From IMG/VR virus record IMGVR_UViG_2617270962_000004, positions 1 through 9,573 of that record: a stretch of 9,573 nt of DNA, one strand, 5' to 3'. Shown one piece after another: positions 17 through 8,930 of the stretch. Numbering within the stretch: the first letter of the stretch is position 1; the number at the start of each line of letters is the position of its first letter. This stretch comes from a virus. Lineage: Duplodnaviria > Heunggongvirae > Uroviricota > Caudoviricetes. Below the pieces are notes generated by a model, which did no database searches, had not been told where the DNA came from, and saw nothing but the letters and a program-made list of their open reading frames with translations. Both the position numbers and the translations under genes were made by a program.

Positions 17-532
17 TCACCCCCTGACTCGCTTTTCAGCAGCATAAAACTCATCAGACAGTATTTCGGTCATTTTCTGTTTTGCGGGTTTTACGCCGCA
101 CTGAAGGTAAATCACATCGTCAACGCAGAACCACTTCACAGGGCCAAACAGGATTGCCGAGAAATCAATACCCAGCCAGAACAACAGCGCATCGGTTCTG
201 GCATACGTGACGGGCGAATATTCACGCCACAGACTGTTCAGTTCATCAGAGGCAACACGCAGGGTTTTAGGGATACGTGATGTGCGCGGTGTGCAGCTCC
301 AGCCATTCGACGCAGTCGGTTTTCGCCATAAGTCGCGATGAAAAGGATATTTGTCCTCCGTAAAACGCAGTCCCTTAAAGCAAAATCCACTGATACCGGA
401 TACAAATACCGACCGGCACGCAACATTCAGCACGGCCTCAAGGCGTTTTGCCTCATCCTTAACTTTCTGGCAGTCCTGCTGGTATTTTTGCCACGCAGCC
501 AGCGCGGAAGGGTTTGATGTTTTAAAGAACAT
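17..532 (-). CDS. hypothetical prophage early-region protein (171 aa)
   Basis: Intact ORF in the same orientation as the early operon. Its ATG (532..530) overlaps the TAA stop of the upstream gene by one base (TAATG), suggesting translational coupling. I recognise no family from the sequence. Confidence 0.6.
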   Translation of the reverse strand: MFFKTSNPSALAAWQKYQQDCQKVKDEAKRLEAVLNVACRSVFVSGISGFCFKGLRFTEDKYPFHRDLWRKPTASNGWSCTPRTSRIPKTLRVASDELNSLWREYSPVTYARTDALLFWLGIDFSAILFGPVKWFCVDDVIYLQCGVKPAKQKMTEILSDEFYAAEKRVRG

Positions 533-1065
533 TACGCCACCTCCGCAGATATCCCGGCAGGCGCTGCTGTCCGGTCAACAATCAGGTAGCGCAGAACATG
601 TTCAGTGATATTCCAGCCGCTTAAACCGCAGATAATGACGCCCAGGCGTATGTCGATATACGCCATCACAAACTGGGGCACGCCTTCTTTCATGGCCTGC
701 TCATCAACTTCAGCCACCACATAAACGGTTTCACAGGTCAGAACGCCCTGAGCAAATTCCCACGCCATCGACGGAATATCATGCCCCTCAATCCATGGCA
801 GGGATTTTCTGAAGCTGCACCACTGAACATCATCAGCCGCAGATTCCTGGCTGCATTTGCGACGAACCGGCTGCACCGGGCGGGGGCGCGGAATATCATA
901 AAAACCGTTACATTCCGTCAGCACGCCTGCATCAACCGCATCACGCAGAAAATAAACCATGGAGGATGGCGGCATATTCATTTTTTCAGCCAGTACACCG
1001 CAGGTCAGGCGGCCATAAATACGCAGCCAGTTTTTAACCCCTTCAAGCACTTTTGCATCAATCAT
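532..1065 (-). CDS. hypothetical prophage early-region protein (177 aa), N-terminal region possibly winged-helix-like
   Basis: ORF with ATG at 1065..1063 preceded by GGGG (rc of 1075-1078). Co-oriented with the early operon; the stop overlaps the next start. The fold suggestion is an impression only. Confidence 0.6.
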   Translation of the reverse strand: MIDAKVLEGVKNWLRIYGRLTCGVLAEKMNMPPSSMVYFLRDAVDAGVLTECNGFYDIPRPRPVQPVRRKCSQESAADDVQWCSFRKSLPWIEGHDIPSMAWEFAQGVLTCETVYVVAEVDEQAMKEGVPQFVMAYIDIRLGVIICGLSGWNITEHVLRYLIVDRTAAPAGISAEVA

Positions 1066-1210
1066 GATTTATTTCCCCACCACATTATTAATGACGATAT
1101 AAACGTATTTCATATTTCTTAACCCTTATTTTCTGTTTTCAGGCGCAAGCAGTCCCCTGACGCGAGCGCCATAATTAAAATGAAGTGATATTTAATTGAT
1201 TAATGCGGTG

Positions 1211-1741
1211 TTATTTATTCAGTCCGGCGTCCTGTTCAAAAGGCTCGACATAAAAACTTTCAGCGCCTTTATTCACCTTGATACCGGCAATGCCTTTCAC
1301 AGCATCCGGCTCCGCCAGGACGGCTTCCTTGTTCACTTCCTCTTTCGTGCGGATGAAACGCTCAAGCCCCATACGGCGCAGCATTTCAATCACACCTTCC
1401 ACATCACGGCTGACGCTGCATGATGGCGTTCCCAGCCGCCATGACACCGTTCCGGTGGTCAGATTGGCTGTTTTGGTTTTGCCGCCGTTCGTCAGCTCAT
1501 CACGGTTGGTTTTGCACCAGTCCTGAATCCCTTTAAAAAGCACTTTGATTTGCTTTTTAAGATTTTCAATCTGCGGCGTATAACGGGCGGTGATTTCTGC
1601 CACTTCGTCATTCATCGCCGTTTCCAGGCGTAGCGCCTCTCGCTGAATATCTCCCAGGGTGCGGATATCACGGCTGACTTCTTCCCGGGTCTGCGGTGCC
1701 GCCTCGGCTGCGGCCTTTAATTTTGTAACGCGTTTAGCCAT
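1211..1741 (-). CDS. gam: Gam-like host-nuclease inhibitor (Mu Gam / Ku-like DNA-end-binding protein)
   Basis: 176-aa translation contains ...NRDELTNGGKTKTANLTTGTVSWRLGTPSCSVS...LGLERFIRTKEEVNKEAVLAEPDAVKGIAGIKV...PFEQDAGL, which matches my recollection of phage Mu Gam (about 174 aa) along its whole length. RBS AAGGA is 8-9 nt upstream of the ATG at 1741. Confidence 0.85.
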   Translation of the reverse strand: MAKRVTKLKAAAEAAPQTREEVSRDIRTLGDIQREALRLETAMNDEVAEITARYTPQIENLKKQIKVLFKGIQDWCKTNRDELTNGGKTKTANLTTGTVSWRLGTPSCSVSRDVEGVIEMLRRMGLERFIRTKEEVNKEAVLAEPDAVKGIAGIKVNKGAESFYVEPFEQDAGLNK

Positions 1742-3093: not shown

Positions 3094-4026
3094 TCACACC
3101 TGTGAGAGTAATTCAGGGTTGGTATAAACCTCTTTAAAGGCCGCATTAATATGTTTTTCTGTCAGCGCCGCGCCTTCACCACTGGCGGTGATCCATGCCT
3201 GGTTAAGCGTATGTGTCAGAACGCGTAACGCTCCCGGCTTTTCAGCGATAGCCTGCATGACGGCCAGCTCGGCCTCACCACTGATCCCCCACGCCATGGC
3301 AATGGCCAGCACATCCGCCTTTTTGGCCTTGCGAAGTTGTTTTGTACGGGCAAGACGGCTGAACAGGCGCGATAAATCATCAAAGGCGCGGCGTCCACCT
3401 TTAAACAATCCGCGCGGGTTACCAATAAGCACCATCCCGATCCCCGTGGCGTCCTGGATTGCCCGGAGTTGCTCCAGACCGTCAATACCAAGATGATCCG
3501 CCTCATCCACAATCACCAGTCCACGCGTTCCCATCAGGCGACGGCGGATGGCGCGGGATAATGCCCCTTTGTTCGCGCGGGTGTAATCAATCCCCAGCGC
3601 ATCGGCCAGCTCCAGCAGACACTCCGTGACGCTGGAGTGCGCGGGTGACAGGGTGATCATCCAGGTGTTTGGTTGCTCCTGGCAGTAATTACGGGCAGTG
3701 GCCGTTTTACCCACACCCGGTACGCCCACAATAACGTTAATACAGCCCATCAGGCGAACCGCCTGAAACAGTGCGCGCAGCTCCTGGACTGTCTGAGTTT
3801 CCACAAACTGCGGCGGTTCCGGCAGTGCGCTTTGTTTATTCCAGTTCTCATACCAGGAGCGCAGGGAAGCAGCCACAGCAGCGTTATCGCCTTTATATTT
3901 TCCCTTACGGAAAGCCGATAATGTGCCGTCGGAAATCCCCGCCTCTCTGGCGATGGCATACTGCGTCAGTACGCCGCCATCAATAAGTTCATCAATGGTC
4001 TTGATTACATCGTTAATATCGGTCAT
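3094..4026 (-). CDS. B: MuB-like ATP-dependent target DNA activator (AAA+ ATPase)
   Basis: Translation contains a Walker A motif (VGVPGVGKTATARNY) and a Walker B-like motif (LVIVDEADHL). It aligns along its length with my recollection of phage Mu B (for example LPEPPQFVETQTV, KPGALRVL). Size 310-313 aa versus 312 for MuB. I prefer the ATG at 4026 (RBS GAGGTG 8 nt upstream) over the GTG at 4035 used by the ORF track. Confidence 0.9.
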   Translation of the reverse strand: MTDINDVIKTIDELIDGGVLTQYAIAREAGISDGTLSAFRKGKYKGDNAAVAASLRSWYENWNKQSALPEPPQFVETQTVQELRALFQAVRLMGCINVIVGVPGVGKTATARNYCQEQPNTWMITLSPAHSSVTECLLELADALGIDYTRANKGALSRAIRRRLMGTRGLVIVDEADHLGIDGLEQLRAIQDATGIGMVLIGNPRGLFKGGRRAFDDLSRLFSRLARTKQLRKAKKADVLAIAMAWGISGEAELAVMQAIAEKPGALRVLTHTLNQAWITASGEGAALTEKHINAAFKEVYTNPELLSQV

Positions 4027-4108
4027 ATTATTCACCTCGCTTGAGACAGCATTCTCCGAGACTGAAACCTCAAATAACCTGAGTCACCCCTCGGGTTATT
4101 TTTTTATT

Positions 4109-6199
4109 TCAGGCCAGCGGATCACTTTCTTTTAATTTCGCTTCGAGCAGTTGCAATCCCCGCTGGAAATTACGCTCGTATTCTTCATCAGGTTCATCGT
4201 CAGCGACAGGTTGCTGAACGGTCACCGTATTACCCACAGGGCGGTAGATGTTTTCCAGCCAGGGCTCCTGCGGCTTGTGCTCCAGCACGTTGACAACCTC
4301 ATCCTCGGCATCACGGATTTTTTCCTCTGCGCGTTTACGCATACCTTTAAGGCGCTGCTGCTGTTTGTAGTATTCCGCGCTGACAGGGAAGGCTTCGCGT
4401 TTATTGCCGTCCCATACCGCCTCGCAAATCACGCTGCCATCCGGGCGGCGCACGGTAATTCGTTCGGCATCATGAATGTCATAGCTGATAAGTACCTTAC
4501 GGCCATGCTCGTCACGCAGCTCGGGCGCGTAGTAAATATTATTCAGCCAGCGTATTTCACAGCGTCTTACAGGGCGCTCCACCATCGGCCGGAACATATC
4601 CCGCAGTTCAACATCGGACAGCCATTCAATTTCCGTGTCCTCTTCCGCCAGGCGTTTTTTTCTGAACTCCGCCGGGCTGTAATGTTTACCGTTCGGCTTC
4701 ATGGGTAATTCATCGTGCGGCCGGTTGTTGTACCACTCAACACCGTCACGAATGGCATCAATCAGTTCAGACCAGGACGGTAAATCACGCATCGCTGACT
4801 GCTGCCGGGCGTTCAGCCGTTTGCCCTGTTGCAGGGCACTGAATGCCGAGCGTAAATCGCGGTTGGTTTTACGTAACGTCTCGCGATCTGCTCCTTTCCC
4901 GAAATAGGTGCGGTATTTACGGGCTATGCGCATCGGTAATGTGCGGTTAAGCCGTTCGATAATGCCCCGTCCCTGCGGATTACCGGCAATCCCTGTCGGG
5001 TGATTAATCCCCAGTCGTGGCAGTATCCCCACAATCTCCTTATCCAGGACGTCGGCGGTTTCCCCGGAGCCATTATCCGAGTAATACAGAAACGGTTTGC
5101 CATGATGGCGAATACCGTGCTGTATGGCACCGGCTACGGCGAAAACATTTTCAGCCAGGTCAAGGCTCCAGCCCACCACAAAGCGCGTGCCACCGTCGAT
5201 AACAAAGGTCACTTCCGGTGCGAATGGCCGCCCGTGAACCGGGTGCGCGCATTTCAGCTTCATGCCGTGACCGTCACCAATCCAGACATAATTCACCGGC
5301 ATTTTTGACCAGTCGCGGCGCGTGAATCCCTCAAGCTGGCGGTATTCACTGCCAGTTACCCGGCCTTTTTGTTTCACCACTTCCGGCAGTTTCTTCATTG
5401 CGCGGCGAATGGTGTCATAAGAGGGCATGATATCGAGCATATAAGGCTCATCAGCGTGCCGGTGCTGCCATTCAGCAACAAAATCCTCGTAAGCCTCGGT
5501 CATTGGTCGGCCGTTTGACTGGCGATACTGCGCCAGAAATTCGGGCAGCCAGTTAATATCTTCGGCTTTTATTTCCTGGCGTTTACCCGGTGCCAGTAAA
5601 AGCAGGCGTTCAGCGGCGTTCTGTGCCTTGTTAAAGGCCGCAATCCAGCGTTTCAGCGTGATTTCACTCAACGCACGGCTGTTTCCCTTTTTGGCGTTCG
5701 CCGTCTCAACCATTGCCACAATGCGCTCGTCCAGTTGCGAACGTGCCAGGTTGTCAACGATAAACCGGATAGCCTTCGCACAGCTGAAACCAGGTTGTTG
5801 CGCGACTTTCAGAACTTCGCTGACGATCGCGATTCGTGCATCAGCCACCTGGCGCTGGTTTTCAGTCAGGGCATTGAGGCGTTCGAGCATCAGTTGTGGT
5901 GATCCGCGATATGCCTCCACCGCATCAACCACGGCAGATGAGCGTCTGGCCTTTGTCACCACCGGAGCCGGTGATTCATCAGCTTTTTGCGTCATCAGTT
6001 GAAGGGCATAACGTTCACGCAATACTTGTTGCGCGCCAGAAGGCAAACAATCGATATTAAATTCGATTGCTTTTGTCCCCTTACGTTTGCGTAACATGGC
6101 TGCATTTCCCGCAGCTGCTTTTGTGAGTCGATGGCGAATGTTATGTTCCATCATTGGTAAATCAGGAAGACCAACACATTCTTTTGCTGTTACCCACAT
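4109..6199 (-). CDS. A: MuA-like DDE transposase (transposable-phage transposase A)
   Basis: 696-aa ORF. The N-terminus MWVTAKECVGLPDLP...GTKAIEFNIDCLP resembles the MuA N-terminal DNA-binding domain (Mu: MELWVSPKECANLPGLP...GKAIEY). Size (Mu A is 663 aa) and position between ner-like and B-like genes fit. RBS GGGGGA lies 4-5 nt upstream of the ATG. Confidence 0.92.
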   Translation of the reverse strand: MWVTAKECVGLPDLPMMEHNIRHRLTKAAAGNAAMLRKRKGTKAIEFNIDCLPSGAQQVLRERYALQLMTQKADESPAPVVTKARRSSAVVDAVEAYRGSPQLMLERLNALTENQRQVADARIAIVSEVLKVAQQPGFSCAKAIRFIVDNLARSQLDERIVAMVETANAKKGNSRALSEITLKRWIAAFNKAQNAAERLLLLAPGKRQEIKAEDINWLPEFLAQYRQSNGRPMTEAYEDFVAEWQHRHADEPYMLDIMPSYDTIRRAMKKLPEVVKQKGRVTGSEYRQLEGFTRRDWSKMPVNYVWIGDGHGMKLKCAHPVHGRPFAPEVTFVIDGGTRFVVGWSLDLAENVFAVAGAIQHGIRHHGKPFLYYSDNGSGETADVLDKEIVGILPRLGINHPTGIAGNPQGRGIIERLNRTLPMRIARKYRTYFGKGADRETLRKTNRDLRSAFSALQQGKRLNARQQSAMRDLPSWSELIDAIRDGVEWYNNRPHDELPMKPNGKHYSPAEFRKKRLAEEDTEIEWLSDVELRDMFRPMVERPVRRCEIRWLNNIYYAPELRDEHGRKVLISYDIHDAERITVRRPDGSVICEAVWDGNKREAFPVSAEYYKQQQRLKGMRKRAEEKIRDAEDEVVNVLEHKPQEPWLENIYRPVGNTVTVQQPVADDEPDEEYERNFQRGLQLLEAKLKESDPLA

Positions 6200-6209
6200 A
6201 CATCCCCCA

Positions 6210-6476
6210 TCAAGCCACTTCTCTGGCGTCCACCTGGTATCTGCTGGGCCAGATTACAGCAGGTTCAACCCCTATTTTTTCGGCGATGGCGGCTTCGTAT
6301 TTACGGCACTGGCGGTAAAACACATTGCGCATTGATCCGCTTTTTAATCCTAACTCCCTTTCCAGTTCAGGGAGGTCTGTGCCTTTGTTTTCAAGGGCTG
6401 CATATACCGCTTTAGCAGACCAGTCACACCCCTCTCGAACAAACAAATTATTCGATGCTTGTCTGGATACCCTCAT
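6210..6476 (-). CDS. ner: Ner-like DNA-binding regulator (Ner/Nlp family)
   Basis: The C-terminal motif PAVIWPSRYQ matches the conserved end of Mu Ner and E. coli Nlp (PEVIWPSRY). It is the first gene of the early operon, directly upstream of the transposase. Confidence 0.8.
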   Translation of the reverse strand: MRVSRQASNNLFVREGCDWSAKAVYAALENKGTDLPELERELGLKSGSMRNVFYRQCRKYEAAIAEKIGVEPAVIWPSRYQVDAREVA

Positions 6477-6632: not shown

Positions 6633-7244
6633 ATGGATAAGGCAGAAAAAACCGTATCCAGTGCGGAACGGTTTATTGATATGGAAGGAATAAACCGATT
6701 TTCAGAACGCTTAGCTATGGCTATGGGAAACATGACAAACGTCGAACTGGCGACCCTTTGTGGACTATCTGAAGCCACAGTAAGAAATTACAGGAAGGGG
6801 AAAAACTTCCCTCCTTTGGATAAACTGGCCTTAATAGCTAAAGCCTGTAATTGTTCACTCGACTGGTTGGCCACAGGCAAGAACGAAGATGAATGCGGAA
6901 AAATCGGAAAAAATTGCGATTCAGGTTCGGGTATTGATCAGGCGCTTAGCTCTCTAAGCCCCCAAGAGAAGCAATTAATCCTTACATTCATCAGGCGAGA
7001 AGGTACTAACAACCTTGTCAGGCTGGCAGCAATGAATACATCTACAATCAGCCAGGATGCGGTAGAAAGCATCATTGATGCCTTGCCATTACGTCCCGTA
7101 CTAAAAAATGCAATAAAGATAGGAATGGCGGGAAGTGAAGAAACAGACAAAGAGATTTTGCGCGTTATTGAGAAGTACAACTCGAGCAATAACGCCACCC
7201 AGGAATCAGGGGCAGTGACAGTAAAGAAAAATGTTGTTGGTTAA
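6633..7244 (+). CDS. prophage repressor, HTH XRE (Cro/C1)-type, 203 aa, functional analogue of Mu c
   Basis: Strong RBS AGGGGG 5 nt upstream of the ATG. Residues about 36-80 (NVELATLCGLSEATVRNYRKGKNFPPLDKLALIAKACNCSLDWLATG) form a typical XRE-family helix-turn-helix. It is transcribed divergently from ner/A/B towards the prophage end, as c is in Mu. I see no LexA-like S24 peptidase motif. Confidence 0.75.
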   Translation: MDKAEKTVSSAERFIDMEGINRFSERLAMAMGNMTNVELATLCGLSEATVRNYRKGKNFPPLDKLALIAKACNCSLDWLATGKNEDECGKIGKNCDSGSGIDQALSSLSPQEKQLILTFIRREGTNNLVRLAAMNTSTISQDAVESIIDALPLRPVLKNAIKIGMAGSEETDKEILRVIEKYNSSNNATQESGAVTVKKNVVG

Positions 7245-7416: not shown

Positions 7417-7600
7417 GGTAAATTAGCAGTATCAAATGTGCCGCCGTTTTTTGATCTTTTGACTATTTGTTGAGCAGTCGGTATCAAAAAGAGTTTTCCG
7501 TCCGAAGTATACATCACCTGTTTTATTTCAGCATCTTACAGGTGATTTCACCTCCTTTCACTAAAACCCTTGTCGGTATCAAATGATTCACCTGGTTACA
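7417..7600. repeat. prophage terminus (attL-like) with three direct repeats of a putative transposase end-binding motif
   Basis: Direct repeats AGTATCAAATG (7428-7438), GGTATCAAAAA (7480-7490) and GGTATCAAATG (7575-7585). The element ends ...GGTTACA at 7600, so the other strand reads 5'-TGTAACC..., the 5'-TG terminus typical of Mu-like elements. The exact end is uncertain by a few bp. Confidence 0.55.
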
Positions 7601-8930
7601 CCCATGCGTCTTGATCGACAGAAGTTTTATAATGTGCATCGTTATAATCTACGATGCTGTCCGCGCTGTACGCTTTGCTGGCCTGGAAACCATCCGCAAC
7701 AATGACGCCGCCGTTATCAATTTCACAGGTAGTCGGGTTACCGTACTGACTCAATTCCGCAGCGGTAGCTGTACGCTCGAGACGCCATGGGTTATTGGAG
7801 TTTTCAGCGCTGGTACCCCGTGGGCAATCTTTAGACCCAACCCACCAGGCGTTCTTGTAAACATTACCATTGAAAATAACATGGTAAATTTCGCTACCTT
7901 CCTGGCCGCTCCACGCTTGCAATGAGTAATCGTTAACGCTATCCGCTGGTGTTGATGGCTCGCTGTTATCCGGAGTTGGGGTCACCGGTGTTTCCGGAGT
8001 TGGATCAACCGGAGTCACAGCACCGCCATTATTATCCGGCTTAACGGAACAGGAGCCAGGGTTACCATACTGGCTGATTTCTGTTGCCGTTGCCGCGCGA
8101 ACATAACGCCATGGGTTACTGGCATCGTTTTCTTTCGCATCGCCTGGGCAATTTGCCGCGCCTACCCACCAGGCGTTCTTATAAATGCCGCCGTTATAGA
8201 TAACGTACCATGTAGAAGAACCTTCCTGACCTTTCCAGGCTACTACAGCATAGTTGTCGTTTGACTTATCAGCTGGGGCTGGCTGAACATCAGGAGCCGG
8301 TTTAACGTCCGGTGCCGGTTTCACATCCGGTGAAGGCTGTGGTGCTGAAGTACAGGACTGTGGATTACTGGTTTCTGAGATTTCCGTTGCCGTAGCGGCA
8401 CGAACATAACGCCATGGGTTGCTGGCATCATTGCTTTTCGCATCACCCGGACAGTTAGAAGAGGCTACCCACCAGGCATTTTTATATACCGCACCATTAA
8501 AGACGACATACCAGGTCTGACCGCCCTGCTGTTTATTCCAGGCAACTACAGAAGAATTAGACGGAACAGTGCCCTGTGCTGGTGTAGCCGAACCGCCATT
8601 AGCCGGCGTATTGGATGCAGGCGTATTTGAATTTGAAGAAGATGAGCTGCCGCTCTTTTCGCAGGAAAGTGTATTGCCAAACTGACTAATTTCAGCAGCT
8701 GTTGCGGTACGCTTTAAACGCCACGGGTTAGTTGCATCATTTGCTTTCGCTTTTCCCGGGCAATTTGTAGAAGAAACCCACCAGGCATTTTCATAAATTT
8801 TGCCATCGAAAATAACCTGATATTTATTACCACCTTGTTGGTTATTCCATGCTTCCATTGCCAATGCTGGCAGAGCGGAACACACCAGCCCCATACCAAT
8901 CATAGATTTAGTAAATATATTTAATTTCAT
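7596..8930 (-). CDS. chiA: periplasmic endochitinase ChiA, 5' fragment (signal peptide plus four chitin-binding modules, 444 codons), truncated by the prophage insertion
   Basis: N-terminus MKLNIFTKSMIGMGLVCSALPALA is a signal peptide. Four about 65-aa modules repeat with the pattern AW...Y.V.FNG..Y.NAWWV...CPG...NPWR...TA.EIS, separated by S/T/P-rich linkers. RBS AAGGGA precedes the ATG. The last codon (GTG) and the TAA stop are supplied by the prophage end. E. coli ChiA is about 897 aa as I recall, so the catalytic domain is missing here. Confidence 0.85.
   Translation of the reverse strand: MKLNIFTKSMIGMGLVCSALPALAMEAWNNQQGGNKYQVIFDGKIYENAWWVSSTNCPGKAKANDATNPWRLKRTATAAEISQFGNTLSCEKSGSSSSSNSNTPASNTPANGGSATPAQGTVPSNSSVVAWNKQQGGQTWYVVFNGAVYKNAWWVASSNCPGDAKSNDASNPWRYVRAATATEISETSNPQSCTSAPQPSPDVKPAPDVKPAPDVQPAPADKSNDNYAVVAWKGQEGSSTWYVIYNGGIYKNAWWVGAANCPGDAKENDASNPWRYVRAATATEISQYGNPGSCSVKPDNNGGAVTPVDPTPETPVTPTPDNSEPSTPADSVNDYSLQAWSGQEGSEIYHVIFNGNVYKNAWWVGSKDCPRGTSAENSNNPWRLERTATAAELSQYGNPTTCEIDNGGVIVADGFQASKAYSADSIVDYNDAHYKTSVDQDAWV
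8277..8330 (-). repeat. in-frame 18-bp tandem repeat (3 units) encoding the linker PDVKPA PDVKPA PDVQPA within chiA
   Basis: Minus-strand units CCGGATGTGAAACCGGCA / CCGGACGTTAAACCGGCT / CCTGATGTTCAGCCAGCC, read directly from the sequence. Confidence 0.5.

What the first reader, a model, noticed from the sequence alone, without database searches (positions are those of the whole stretch)
1066..1210. Unusually long 145-bp gap inside the otherwise tightly packed early operon, with a 14-codon upstream ORF and a GC-rich inverted repeat
All other gene junctions in the operon are overlaps or gaps of 12 nt or less. Here the gap after gam holds a mini-ORF on the minus strand (1113..1069, MKYVYIVINNVVGK) with its own AAGGG RBS, ending 3 nt before the next gene's ATG, an arrangement like a leader peptide. 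It also holds an inverted repeat GGCGC-N19-GCGCC (1142-1170). This could be an internal regulatory point (attenuator, processing site, internal promoter or small RNA) separating gam from the distal genes.
Basis: seen in the sequence. Interest (0 to 1): 0.4.

Follow-up and report, generated by a model that had tools for sequence, protein, structure and literature searches.

The report
Deleted-gene scar beside conserved Mu hairpin
The long gap after gam in this Mu-like prophage is a roughly 97-base non-coding segment shared with phage Mu, containing a conserved hairpin of unknown function, followed by the 14-codon stump of a deleted accessory gene, so it is not a leader-peptide attenuator.

Summary
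The coordinates given are correct: a 145-nt gap (1066-1210), a minus-strand mini-ORF (1113..1069), an AAGGG RBS, and GGCGC-N19-GCGCC at 1142-1170. The claim that every other junction is 12 nt or less is wrong, because A to B is 73-82 nt.

The gap has two parts of different origin.

1. The promoter-proximal ~97 nt is the normal gam-distal spacer of Mu-family phages (98 nt in Mu, 91 nt in SfMu). Its core, TCAC..TTTTAATTAT-hairpin-TGAAA, is about 80% identical between this prophage and Mu. Third codon positions of the flanking genes are only 45-48% identical. The hairpin is therefore under selection. It is unannotated in Mu and matches no Rfam family, terminator or sigma-70 promoter.

2. The mini-ORF is a scar. 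In about 93% of related E. coli prophages the same RBS and ATG open a 180-196-aa DUF5420-like accessory gene that ends TAA-NNN-ATG before gp11. Here exactly 498 nt (166 codons) are missing. All 19 copies in 15 genomes are identical, so nothing shows selection on the peptide.

The most likely role of the hairpin is an intercistronic RNA element for mRNA processing or stability, or for translational insulation, at the edge of a variable cargo slot. That role is inferred, not shown.

The parts
1211..1741 (-). gam (host-nuclease inhibitor), the last gene of the conserved proximal block of the early operon
   Evidence: Pfam Phage_Mu_Gam, E = 5.5e-42. It is 57% identical in amino acids to Mu Gam.
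1171..1210 (-). A/T-rich, G-poor untranslated spacer directly after the gam stop (1 G in 40 nt). The 5' half is variable. The 3' half, TCACTTCATTTTAATTAT (1188..1171), is conserved.
   Evidence: Sequence. Alignments with Mu, D108, SfMu and 24 distinct variants. Within-clade diversity is 0.108 for nt 1-22 after the stop and 0.079 for nt 23-40, against 0.116 at gam third codon positions.
1142..1170 (-). Conserved GC-clamped hairpin, GGCGC UC GCGUC AGGG GAC U GC UU GCGCC.
   Evidence: Predicted fold of -15.6 kcal/mol, z = -2.2. The outer 5 pairs are invariant in 24 distinct variants. The inner pairs change only to G.U wobbles on the sense strand or, rarely, break. Within-clade diversity is 0.048, against 0.116 at synonymous-type sites. 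The element is about 80% identical to Mu, against 45-48% at flanking third codon positions. It occurs once in the Mu genome.
1114..1141 (-). A-rich leader with the AAGGG RBS (1127..1123), inherited from the accessory-gene slot
   Evidence: About 79% identical to the leader of the 180-aa gene in the closest relatives, with the ATG at the same position.
1069..1113 (-). 14-codon mini-ORF: the in-frame deletion remnant of a DUF5420-like accessory gene
   Evidence: The first 6 codons, M-K-Y-V-Y-I, compare with M-A-Y-F-Y-F of the full gene, 13 of 18 nt identical. The stop-NNN-ATG junction to gp11 is the same as in full-length alleles. The distance from the hairpin to the gp11 ATG is 74 nt here and 572 nt in relatives, a difference of 498 nt or 166 codons. 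Fifteen of 5426 complete E. coli genomes carry it, all 100% identical.
532..1065 (-). gp11-like gene, the first intact distal gene. Its SD (GGGG, 9 nt upstream of the ATG) lies inside the mini-ORF.
   Evidence: Pfam Gp11_C, E = 5.8e-41. PHROG 1949. It is 69% identical in amino acids to Mu gp11.

Best explanation
The 145-nt gap is a composite of two parts.

(a) About 97 nt are the ancestral gam-distal intercistronic spacer of Mu-family early operons. It consists of a G-poor A/U-rich stretch, a conserved UUUUAAUUAU motif, a GC-clamped hairpin, and an A-rich leader with an SD. My best guess is that the hairpin acts in the sense-strand early mRNA as an intercistronic punctuation element. In that model, RNase E-type cleavage in the flanking A/U-rich single strand leaves the hairpin as a protective end. 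This would uncouple the stability and translation of the A-B-...-gam segment from the variable distal accessory genes. The hairpin would also give whatever gene sits in the downstream slot an independent ribosome entry site. It also marks the left edge of a hot spot where accessory genes are swapped.

(b) The remaining ~48 nt, the mini-ORF, are the stump of a DUF5420-like accessory gene that lost exactly 166 internal codons. It keeps the old RBS, ATG and stop-NNN-ATG junction. Ribosomes that start there still terminate 3 nt before the gp11 ATG, as they do in relatives. The peptide itself has no demonstrated or likely function.

Shown: the homology, the deletion, the conservation, and the absence of terminator and promoter consensus. 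Inferred: action at the RNA level and the processing/stability mechanism.
For: Scar:
- The closest relatives carry a 180-aa ORF exactly between the conserved hairpin and gp11.
- That ORF is 39% identical (E = 2e-43) to the SfMu protein that RefSeq labels DUF5420.
- 232 E. coli genomes have the gam-gp11 region, mostly with the ~500-bp extra gene. Only 15 have the mini-ORF form, all identical.
- Leader, RBS, ATG and the first codons align.
- The size difference is exactly 498 nt and the junction is the same TAA-NNN-ATG.
- The slot also holds two other DUF5420 alleles, unrelated small genes, or nothing.

Hairpin element:
- It is present at the same place in Mu (98-nt gap), D108 and SfMu.
- It is about 80% identical between this prophage and Mu over 51 columns. 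Gam is 58% identical in amino acids, and third codon positions of gam, gp11 and gp12 are 45%, 48% and 35% identical.
- Within-clade diversity is 0.048, against 0.116 at third positions.
- All one-sided stem changes that keep pairing are G.U wobbles valid only on the sense strand.
- Two further Gam clades have a different GC hairpin in the same setting: TTTAAT, then 2-3 nt, the hairpin, an A-rich stretch and an SD, for a total gap of 83-98 nt. One within-clade compensatory change is seen, GGC/GCC to GGU/ACU.
- Some more distant Mu-like phages have canonical terminators after gam.
Against: - Within the Mu plus window clades no pair shows a compensatory double change. Covariation is uninformative: 0 pairs changed on both sides, and the shuffle control is not exceeded.
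- A covariance model built from these clades does not detect the hairpins of the other clades. Their homology is therefore unproven, and the cross-clade 'covariation' may simply be analogy.
- Loop and flank nucleotides (CGTCAGGGGA, TTTTAATTAT) are conserved as sequence. This fits a protein-binding site on RNA or DNA at least as well as a plain stabiliser hairpin.
- I found no transcript-end, RNase or expression data for this region in the searchable literature.
- No full-length parent allele with the mini-ORF's exact 5' codons was found.
- In-frame retention has a 1-in-3 chance expectation.
Confidence: 0.6

Rival explanations
1. The mini-ORF is a functional leader peptide or regulatory uORF whose translation controls gp11, by attenuation or obligatory translational coupling.
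For: It has an RBS at good spacing and stops 3 nt before the gp11 ATG. The gp11 SD lies inside it. The deletion kept the frame.
Against: Mu and D108 have no such ORF, and gp11 follows the hairpin leader directly. Most relatives have a 180-196-aa gene instead. The single mini-ORF allele shows no variation, so no selection can be read from it. No terminator or alternative hairpin follows it. The hairpin is upstream of the ORF, which is the wrong order for attenuation. gp11 has its own SD.
Confidence: 0.1
2. The conserved inverted repeat and its flanks act at the DNA level. It could be a binding site for a host nucleoid protein or a phage protein. It could also be merely a conserved linker that promotes homologous recombination and so exchanges the downstream accessory-gene cassette between Mu-like phages.
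For: Loop and flank bases are conserved as sequence, not only the stem. The element sits exactly at the left edge of a highly variable cargo slot. The right edge, GGAGGAATAA-NN-CATGRTTGATGCAAAA plus the gp11 N-terminus, is also conserved. The A/T-rich flank resembles nucleoid-protein targets (inference).
Against: It is single-copy in Mu, so it is not a reiterated operator. The arm centres are 24-25 bp apart, which is unusual for dimeric HTH binding (inference). The wobble changes are compatible only with sense-strand RNA pairing. Other clades keep a hairpin but not the sequence. A 50-nt recombination tract flanked on both sides by 60%-identical DNA is unlikely to explain the conservation.
Confidence: 0.2
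3. The spacer holds an internal promoter, or encodes a small RNA, so that the distal genes are transcribed independently of Pe.
For: An A/T-rich block with a TTTAAT motif lies 2-3 nt before the hairpin in four clades. A transcript starting there would carry a 5' hairpin. Mu has an annotated 'semi-early' promoter in its other long early-operon gap, upstream of gemA.
Against: The consensus scan finds no sigma-70 promoter here, and its only hit, inside the mini-ORF, is at chance level. By hand, the -35 candidates match at most 2-4 of 6 positions, and TTTAAT lacks the critical A at position 2. There is no similarity to Mu Pm or Plys activator sites. There is no terminator to define an sRNA and no Rfam match.
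Confidence: 0.07
4. The hairpin is a weak or factor-dependent transcription attenuator or pause site (for example Rho-dependent) that lowers expression of the distal, non-essential genes.
For: About 40 nt of untranslated, G-poor RNA (1 G, 8 C) follows the gam stop and precedes a stable hairpin. Several distant Mu-like phages have canonical intrinsic terminators at this position.
Against: No U-tract follows the stem on either strand. The spacer is A/U-rich with only about 20% C, and is short for a rut site (inference).
Confidence: 0.12

Closest known systems
gam-gp11 intergenic region of phage Mu (NC_000929 / AF083977 nt 6326-6423) and of D108 and SfMu
   Same: Same position after gam. Same architecture and nearly the same core sequence, TTTTAATTATGGCGC..CGTCAGGGGA..GCGCCTGAAA. 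Similar length of about 97 nt to the next start codon.
   Different: In Mu and D108 the leader runs straight into gp11. In SfMu and most E. coli relatives it runs into a DUF5420-like gene. Here it runs into the 14-codon stump of such a gene. The Mu-type outer stem is 7 bp (GGCGCGA/TCGCGCC) and the stem here is 5 bp. The Mu records annotate nothing in this spacer except an RBS.
Intercistronic stabiliser or processing hairpins of polycistronic mRNAs (for example REP hairpins in malEFG, and the pap and puf operon processing sites; from general knowledge)
   Same: A stable stem-loop without a U-tract, lying between cistrons and flanked by A/U-rich single-stranded RNA, at the boundary between genes expected to need different expression levels.
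   Different: No experimental ends or half-lives are known here. It is not a REP sequence. Loop and flank bases are conserved, which a pure exonuclease block would not require. Membership cannot be tested with these tools.
Leader-peptide transcription attenuators (trpL or hisL type)
   Same: A short ORF with its own RBS in a leader-like region, near a GC-rich hairpin.
   Different: The hairpin precedes the ORF. There is no terminator U-tract, no alternative pairing and no regulatory codon run. The ORF is a truncated gene that is absent or full-length in relatives.
Phage accessory-gene ('moron'-like) insertion slots with truncated remnants
   Same: One fixed intergenic position carries alternative non-homologous or allelic cargo genes in related phages, sometimes deleted or interrupted.
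   Different: The cargo here has no promoter or terminator of its own. It is embedded in the early operon and is joined to gp11 by a TAA-NNN-ATG junction.

Membership tests
Leader-peptide attenuator | The short ORF lies upstream of, or overlaps, alternative terminator and antiterminator hairpins | tested here: not met
   The only stable hairpin (1142-1170) is 5' of the mini-ORF (1113..1069) on the mRNA. Nothing terminator-like follows it.
Leader-peptide attenuator | The leader ORF is conserved in homologous operons | tested here: not met
   It is absent in Mu and D108. It is replaced by 180-196-aa genes in most relatives. A single invariant allele is found in 15 of 5426 E. coli genomes.
Intrinsic (Rho-independent) terminator | A GC-rich stem immediately followed by a U-tract | tested here: not met
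   The scan finds 0 terminator-like sites in 900-1400. The stem is followed by UGAAAACAG on the sense strand and AUAAUUAAAA on the antisense strand.
Deletion remnant of a DUF5420-like accessory gene | Shares RBS, start codon and N-terminal codons with full-length genes at the orthologous position | tested here: met
   45 of the first 55 aligned columns are identical, through ATG..TA..TTTAT.TC. M-K-Y-V-Y-I compares with M-A-Y-F-Y-F, K-Y-R-Y-F and A-Y-A-Y-F.
Deletion remnant of a DUF5420-like accessory gene | Shares the 3' junction with the downstream gene, and the size difference is a simple indel | tested here: met
   The TAA-NNN-ATG(A/G)TTGATGCAAAA junction is the same. 74 nt against 572 nt gives a difference of 498 nt, or 166 codons.
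Deletion remnant of a DUF5420-like accessory gene | The full-length relatives belong to Pfam DUF5420 | tested here: inconclusive
   The 180-aa protein gives no Pfam hit at E <= 0.001. It is, however, 39% identical (E = 2e-43) to the SfMu protein that RefSeq labels DUF5420 family, and it matches PHROG 2260.
Conserved cis-acting RNA hairpin | Conservation above the neutral (synonymous-site) level | tested here: met
   About 80% identical to Mu, against 35-48% at flanking third codon positions. Diversity is 0.048 against 0.116 within the clade.
Conserved cis-acting RNA hairpin | Compensatory base-pair changes | tested here: inconclusive
   There are none among 24 variants of the Mu and window clades, only G.U one-sided changes. 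The other clades have different, fully complementary stems and one GGC/GCC to GGU/ACU change, but their homology is unproven.
Any Rfam family | Covariance-model match | tested here: not met
   The only hit is a chance match to a Dictyostelium snoRNA model, 17.9 bits against a gathering score of 80, E = 4.4.
Sigma-70 promoter | -35 and -10 hexamers at 16-18 nt spacing | tested here: not met
   There is no site in the conserved spacer. The one site found, inside the mini-ORF, equals the shuffle expectation of 1.0.
Intercistronic mRNA stabiliser or RNase E processing site | Mapped RNA ends and a differential half-life across the hairpin | not testable with these tools
   No transcript data are available, and the literature searches found none.

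The most novel reading that the evidence does not exclude
The ~55-nt post-gam element (UCAC..UUUUAAUUAU, hairpin, UGAAA) is a previously undescribed cis-regulatory RNA of Mu-family early operons. Its conserved loop and flank bases would be recognised by a host or phage factor, such as an RNase, CsrA or Hfq-like binder, or a phage protein. That recognition would set the expression ratio between the transposition/gam block and the variable accessory genes. The element would also define the entry point of an accessory-gene exchange hot spot.
Probability: 0.3. Interest if true: 0.5.

Novelty: new member of a known kind. Interest (0 to 1): 0.3.

Why it matters
Phage Mu is a classic model, yet its records annotate nothing but an RBS in the 98-nt gam-gp11 spacer. 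Showing that its hairpin core is held under selection across prophages whose Gam proteins are only 57% identical gives a concrete, easily mutable candidate for post-transcriptional control of the long early operon. It also marks the left edge of a slot where accessory genes of unknown function (DUF5420-like and others) are swapped or lost. For annotation, the case is a caution: a neat mini-ORF with an RBS and a stop-start junction can be the stump of a deleted gene rather than a leader peptide.

Tried and rejected
- Rfam scan of 900-1400 at a permissive threshold gave only a chance snoRNA hit.
- The consensus promoter/terminator scan found nothing in the conserved spacer.
- An exact-pattern scan of 185,579 species genomes for the element gave 10 hits. 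The two most plausible by host (Yersinia nurmii and an Aeromonadaceae MAG) lie in G+C-rich sequence with none of the element's A/T-rich flank, and the other eight come from unrelated phyla. So the element was not seen outside the E. coli, Shigella and Yersinia-phage Mu group.
- A search for further copies of the motif in the Mu genome and in the window found a single copy. The inverted 15/17 match at window 4121-4137 is absent from Mu and is at the level expected from all-against-all repeats.
- Covariation test on 24 variants: no power.
- A covariance model built from these variants did not find the hairpins of other Gam clades.
- SD sequestration by pairing of the U-rich 5' flank with the leader is strong only for one cargo type (SD unpaired probability about 0.2). 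It is inconsistent for the others, and there is no association between flank variant and cargo type.
- A small ORF starting at the invariant ATG at the hairpin base (1172..1119, MALASGDCLRLKTENKG) was considered. A 1-nt indel shifts the frame between clades, so it is not coding.
- Similarity to the Mu Pm, Plys or gemA-upstream regions: none.
- Similarity to lambda nut boxA/boxB was rejected by inspection, because there is no 5-bp stem with a GNRA-like pentaloop.
- A CsrA-type GGA-in-loop site: the Mu loop is AGGA, but variants with AGAG or AGGU loops exist. Left as unresolved.
- A search for a full-length parent gene with the mini-ORF's exact 5' codons found none.
- PDB sequence search with gp11: no relative.
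- Literature searches for Mu early-transcript processing, DUF5420, or Sp18 sRNAs at this site found nothing relevant.

Full report
**Context.** The window carries the left arm of a Mu-like prophage with its early operon on the minus strand.
- A CI-type repressor is at 6633-7244 (+).
- ner is at 6210-6476.
- Transposase A is at 4109-6199.
- B is at 3094-4035.
- Five small genes follow.
- gam is at 1211-1741.
- A gp11-like gene is at 532-1065.
- A gp12-like gene is at 17-532.

**Observation.** The gap is 145 nt (1066-1210). The mini-ORF has ATG at 1113..1111 and TAA at 1071..1069, and encodes MKYVYIVINNVVGK. AAGGG lies 9 nt upstream of its ATG. GGCGC-N19-GCGCC lies at 1142-1170.

One supporting statement is wrong. 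The A-B junction is 73 nt to the GTG at 4035, or 82 nt to the SD-preceded ATG at 4026, and it has its own hairpin. This gap is therefore the longest but not the only long one. On its own the hairpin is unremarkable: -15.6 kcal/mol, z = -2.2, and 7 of 200 shuffles fold as well.

**What relatives show.** Phage Mu and D108 have a 98-nt gap between gam and gp11. SfMu has a 91-nt gap, then a 184-aa gene that RefSeq labels DUF5420, then gp11.

The closest relatives are 92-94% identical in DNA. They are Mu-like elements inserted in Stx phages and prophages in many E. coli genomes. They have a 180-aa ORF between the same spacer and gp11.

Aligning the spacers shows that the first ~97 nt after the gam stop are shared by all of them. 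The region TTTTAATTATGGCGC..CGTCAGGGGA..GCGCCTGAAA is almost invariant.

**The mini-ORF is a scar.**
- In the relatives, the start codon of the 180-aa gene sits exactly where the mini-ORF ATG sits, behind a homologous leader and RBS.
- The first six codons are related: ATGAAATACGTTTATATC against ATGGCATATTTTTATTTC. The aromatic Y-x-Y motif is shared by all three DUF5420-like alleles.
- Every full-length allele ends ..TEE-TAA-NNC-ATG(A/G)TTGATGCAAAA. The mini-ORF ends TAA-ATC-ATGATTGATGCAAAA.
- The distance from the hairpin to the gp11 ATG is 572 nt in the type-A relatives and 74 nt here. The difference is 498 nt, or exactly 166 codons.
- Among 5426 complete E. coli genomes, 232 carry this gam-gp11 region. 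Only 15 genomes (19 copies) have the mini-ORF form, and all copies are 100% identical over 91 nt. IMG/VR adds 10 contigs, also with the same allele.

With one invariant allele there is no evidence of selection on the peptide. Keeping the frame has a one-in-three chance expectation. The stump does preserve the ancestral geometry: RBS, ATG, and termination 3 nt before the gp11 ATG. It may therefore still deliver ribosomes to gp11. However, gp11 has its own SD (GGGG, 9 nt upstream), and in Mu gp11 needs no upstream ORF.

**The slot is variable.** Downstream of the conserved element I found the following arrangements:
- three DUF5420-like alleles, starting MAYFYFKL (180 aa), MSIKYRYFKM (about 192 aa) and MNMKAYAYFKL (184 aa);
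- unrelated small genes (L126, L158);
- an allele that breaks off after 23 codons into unrelated sequence (L098), which I did not characterise but which may be an insertion;
- gp11 directly, as in Mu and D108;
- the stump described here.

**The hairpin element is under constraint.**
- Between this prophage and Mu, Gam is 58% identical in amino acids. Third codon positions of gam, gp11 and gp12 are 45%, 48% and 35% identical. The element from TCAC to GCGCCTGA is about 80% identical, like first and second codon positions.
- Within 36 contigs of the window's clade, diversity is 0.116 at gam third positions and 0.108 in the first 22 nt after the stop. It is 0.048 across the hairpin, and most of that sits in the internal-loop positions.
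- The element is single-copy in Mu.
- The Mu records annotate only an RBS there.

**What the hairpin is not.** It is not an intrinsic terminator on either strand, not a consensus sigma-70 promoter, and not an Rfam family. It is not a coding sequence either, because a 1-nt indel shifts the frame of the ATG-initiated ORF between clades.

**RNA or DNA.** Among 24 distinct variants the outer five pairs never vary, so they carry no information. The inner pairs change on one side only. The changes that keep pairing are G-C to G.U or U-A to U.G, which are valid only in the sense-strand RNA. A few variants break a pair. No pair shows a double change, and the shuffle control is not exceeded.

Two other Gam clades are about 55-58% identical to this Gam. 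These are L178 (clade Y) and L179-L191 plus L215 (clade X). They have a gap of 83-98 nt with the same layout:
- an A/T-rich stretch;
- TTTAAT, then 2-3 nt;
- a different, fully complementary GC hairpin (GGCGUGCA/UGCACGCC in Y, GGC-A-UGCCUGC/GCAGGCA-GCC in X);
- an A-rich stretch and an SD.

One change within clade X is compensatory, GGC/GCC to GGU/ACU. This favours a structural, sense-strand RNA role. However, a covariance model built from the Mu-type variants does not detect these hairpins. Homology is therefore not established. More distant Mu-like phages have either tight gam-next-gene overlaps or, in several lineages, canonical terminators after gam.

**Mechanism.** I commit to an intercistronic RNA punctuation element. 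The A/U-rich single strand next to a GC-clamped hairpin is the classic setting for endonucleolytic processing, which leaves a protective hairpin end. The element lies exactly where the conserved A-B-...-gam block meets the variable, dispensable distal genes. It is always followed by an independent A-rich leader and SD. This is inference from anatomy and conservation. I put about 0.55 on an RNA-level function and less on the specific processing/stability mechanism.

The conserved loop and flank sequence leaves room for a specific binding factor on RNA or DNA. An SD-sequestering extended helix is predicted convincingly for only one cargo type.

**Verdict.** The finding is real in the sequence. 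The mini-ORF is ordinary, a deletion stump, and the leader-peptide idea fails its own refutation test. The inverted repeat is a modestly interesting, conserved and unannotated hairpin of the Mu early operon, and its function remains to be tested.

Noticed in passing
window 4036-4108 (minus strand); hairpin arms at 4094-4100 and 4073-4079: A second long junction in the same operon. There are 73-82 nt between the transposase A stop and the B start, with an AATAACC-N14-GGTTATT hairpin flanked by an A-run and a T-run. The loop contains GAGGGGTGACT, which resembles the CAGGGGACT of the post-gam hairpin. Mu has only a 38-nt A/T-rich A-B gap without this hairpin. E. coli relatives keep a similar gap.
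   Followed up: partly
L003 1670-2212; L015, L147, L126, L158 and L098 downstream of the conserved element: The position after the post-gam hairpin is an accessory-gene hot spot. It holds three divergent DUF5420-like alleles, all ending KHSE(Y/F)(V/I)A(L/I)TEE, unrelated small genes, or a copy that breaks off after 23 codons into unrelated sequence. The function of these proteins is unknown (PHROG 2260, no Pfam hit for the 180-aa allele).
   Followed up: partly
window 1119-1172 (minus strand): The invariant ATG at the 5' base of the hairpin (TTATGGCGC) opens a 17-codon ORF, MALASGDCLRLKTENKG. A 1-nt indel puts Mu-type copies in another frame, so it is not a conserved peptide. The invariance of the ATG itself is unexplained.
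   Followed up: partly
window 923-1012 (minus strand, N-terminal part of the gp11-like gene): This is the most conserved stretch of the whole gam-gp11 region against Mu, at 83-90% DNA identity in 30-nt windows, far above the rest of gp11 and gam. The N-terminal domain matches no Pfam family and no solved structure.
   Followed up: no
L085, L061, L047, L066/L067 (distant Gam loci), immediately after gam: Several unrelated Mu-like phages place a canonical intrinsic terminator (a GC stem followed by T5-T9) right after gam, in some cases followed by a GemA-like gene. This suggests that the end of gam is a recurrent transcript boundary in transposable phages.
   Followed up: partly
window 6633-7244 (+): The repressor is a lambda CI-type HTH protein (Pfam Phage_CI_repr and HTH_3). 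I recall that Mu's own repressor has a different, transposase-like DNA-binding domain, but I did not scan it here. The immunity module therefore probably differs from Mu, although ner, A, B and gam are Mu-like.
   Followed up: no
window 7596-8930 (minus strand) and about 7494-7560: A 444-aa ORF holds four diverged ~310-nt repeats (7752-8867) and has no Pfam match. It lies beyond what looks like the prophage left end, ..CGAAGTATACA near 7514, which is followed by a TCACCTGT..ACAGGTGA hairpin. The end was not verified.
   Followed up: no
L176 (Mu) 8128-8232: Mu's other long early-operon gap, upstream of gemA, is annotated as a 'semi-early promoter'. It also contains a GC hairpin without a U-tract (GGCGGTG-TTGCAG-CACCGCC) about 20 nt before the SD, the same layout as the post-gam spacer.
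   Followed up: no
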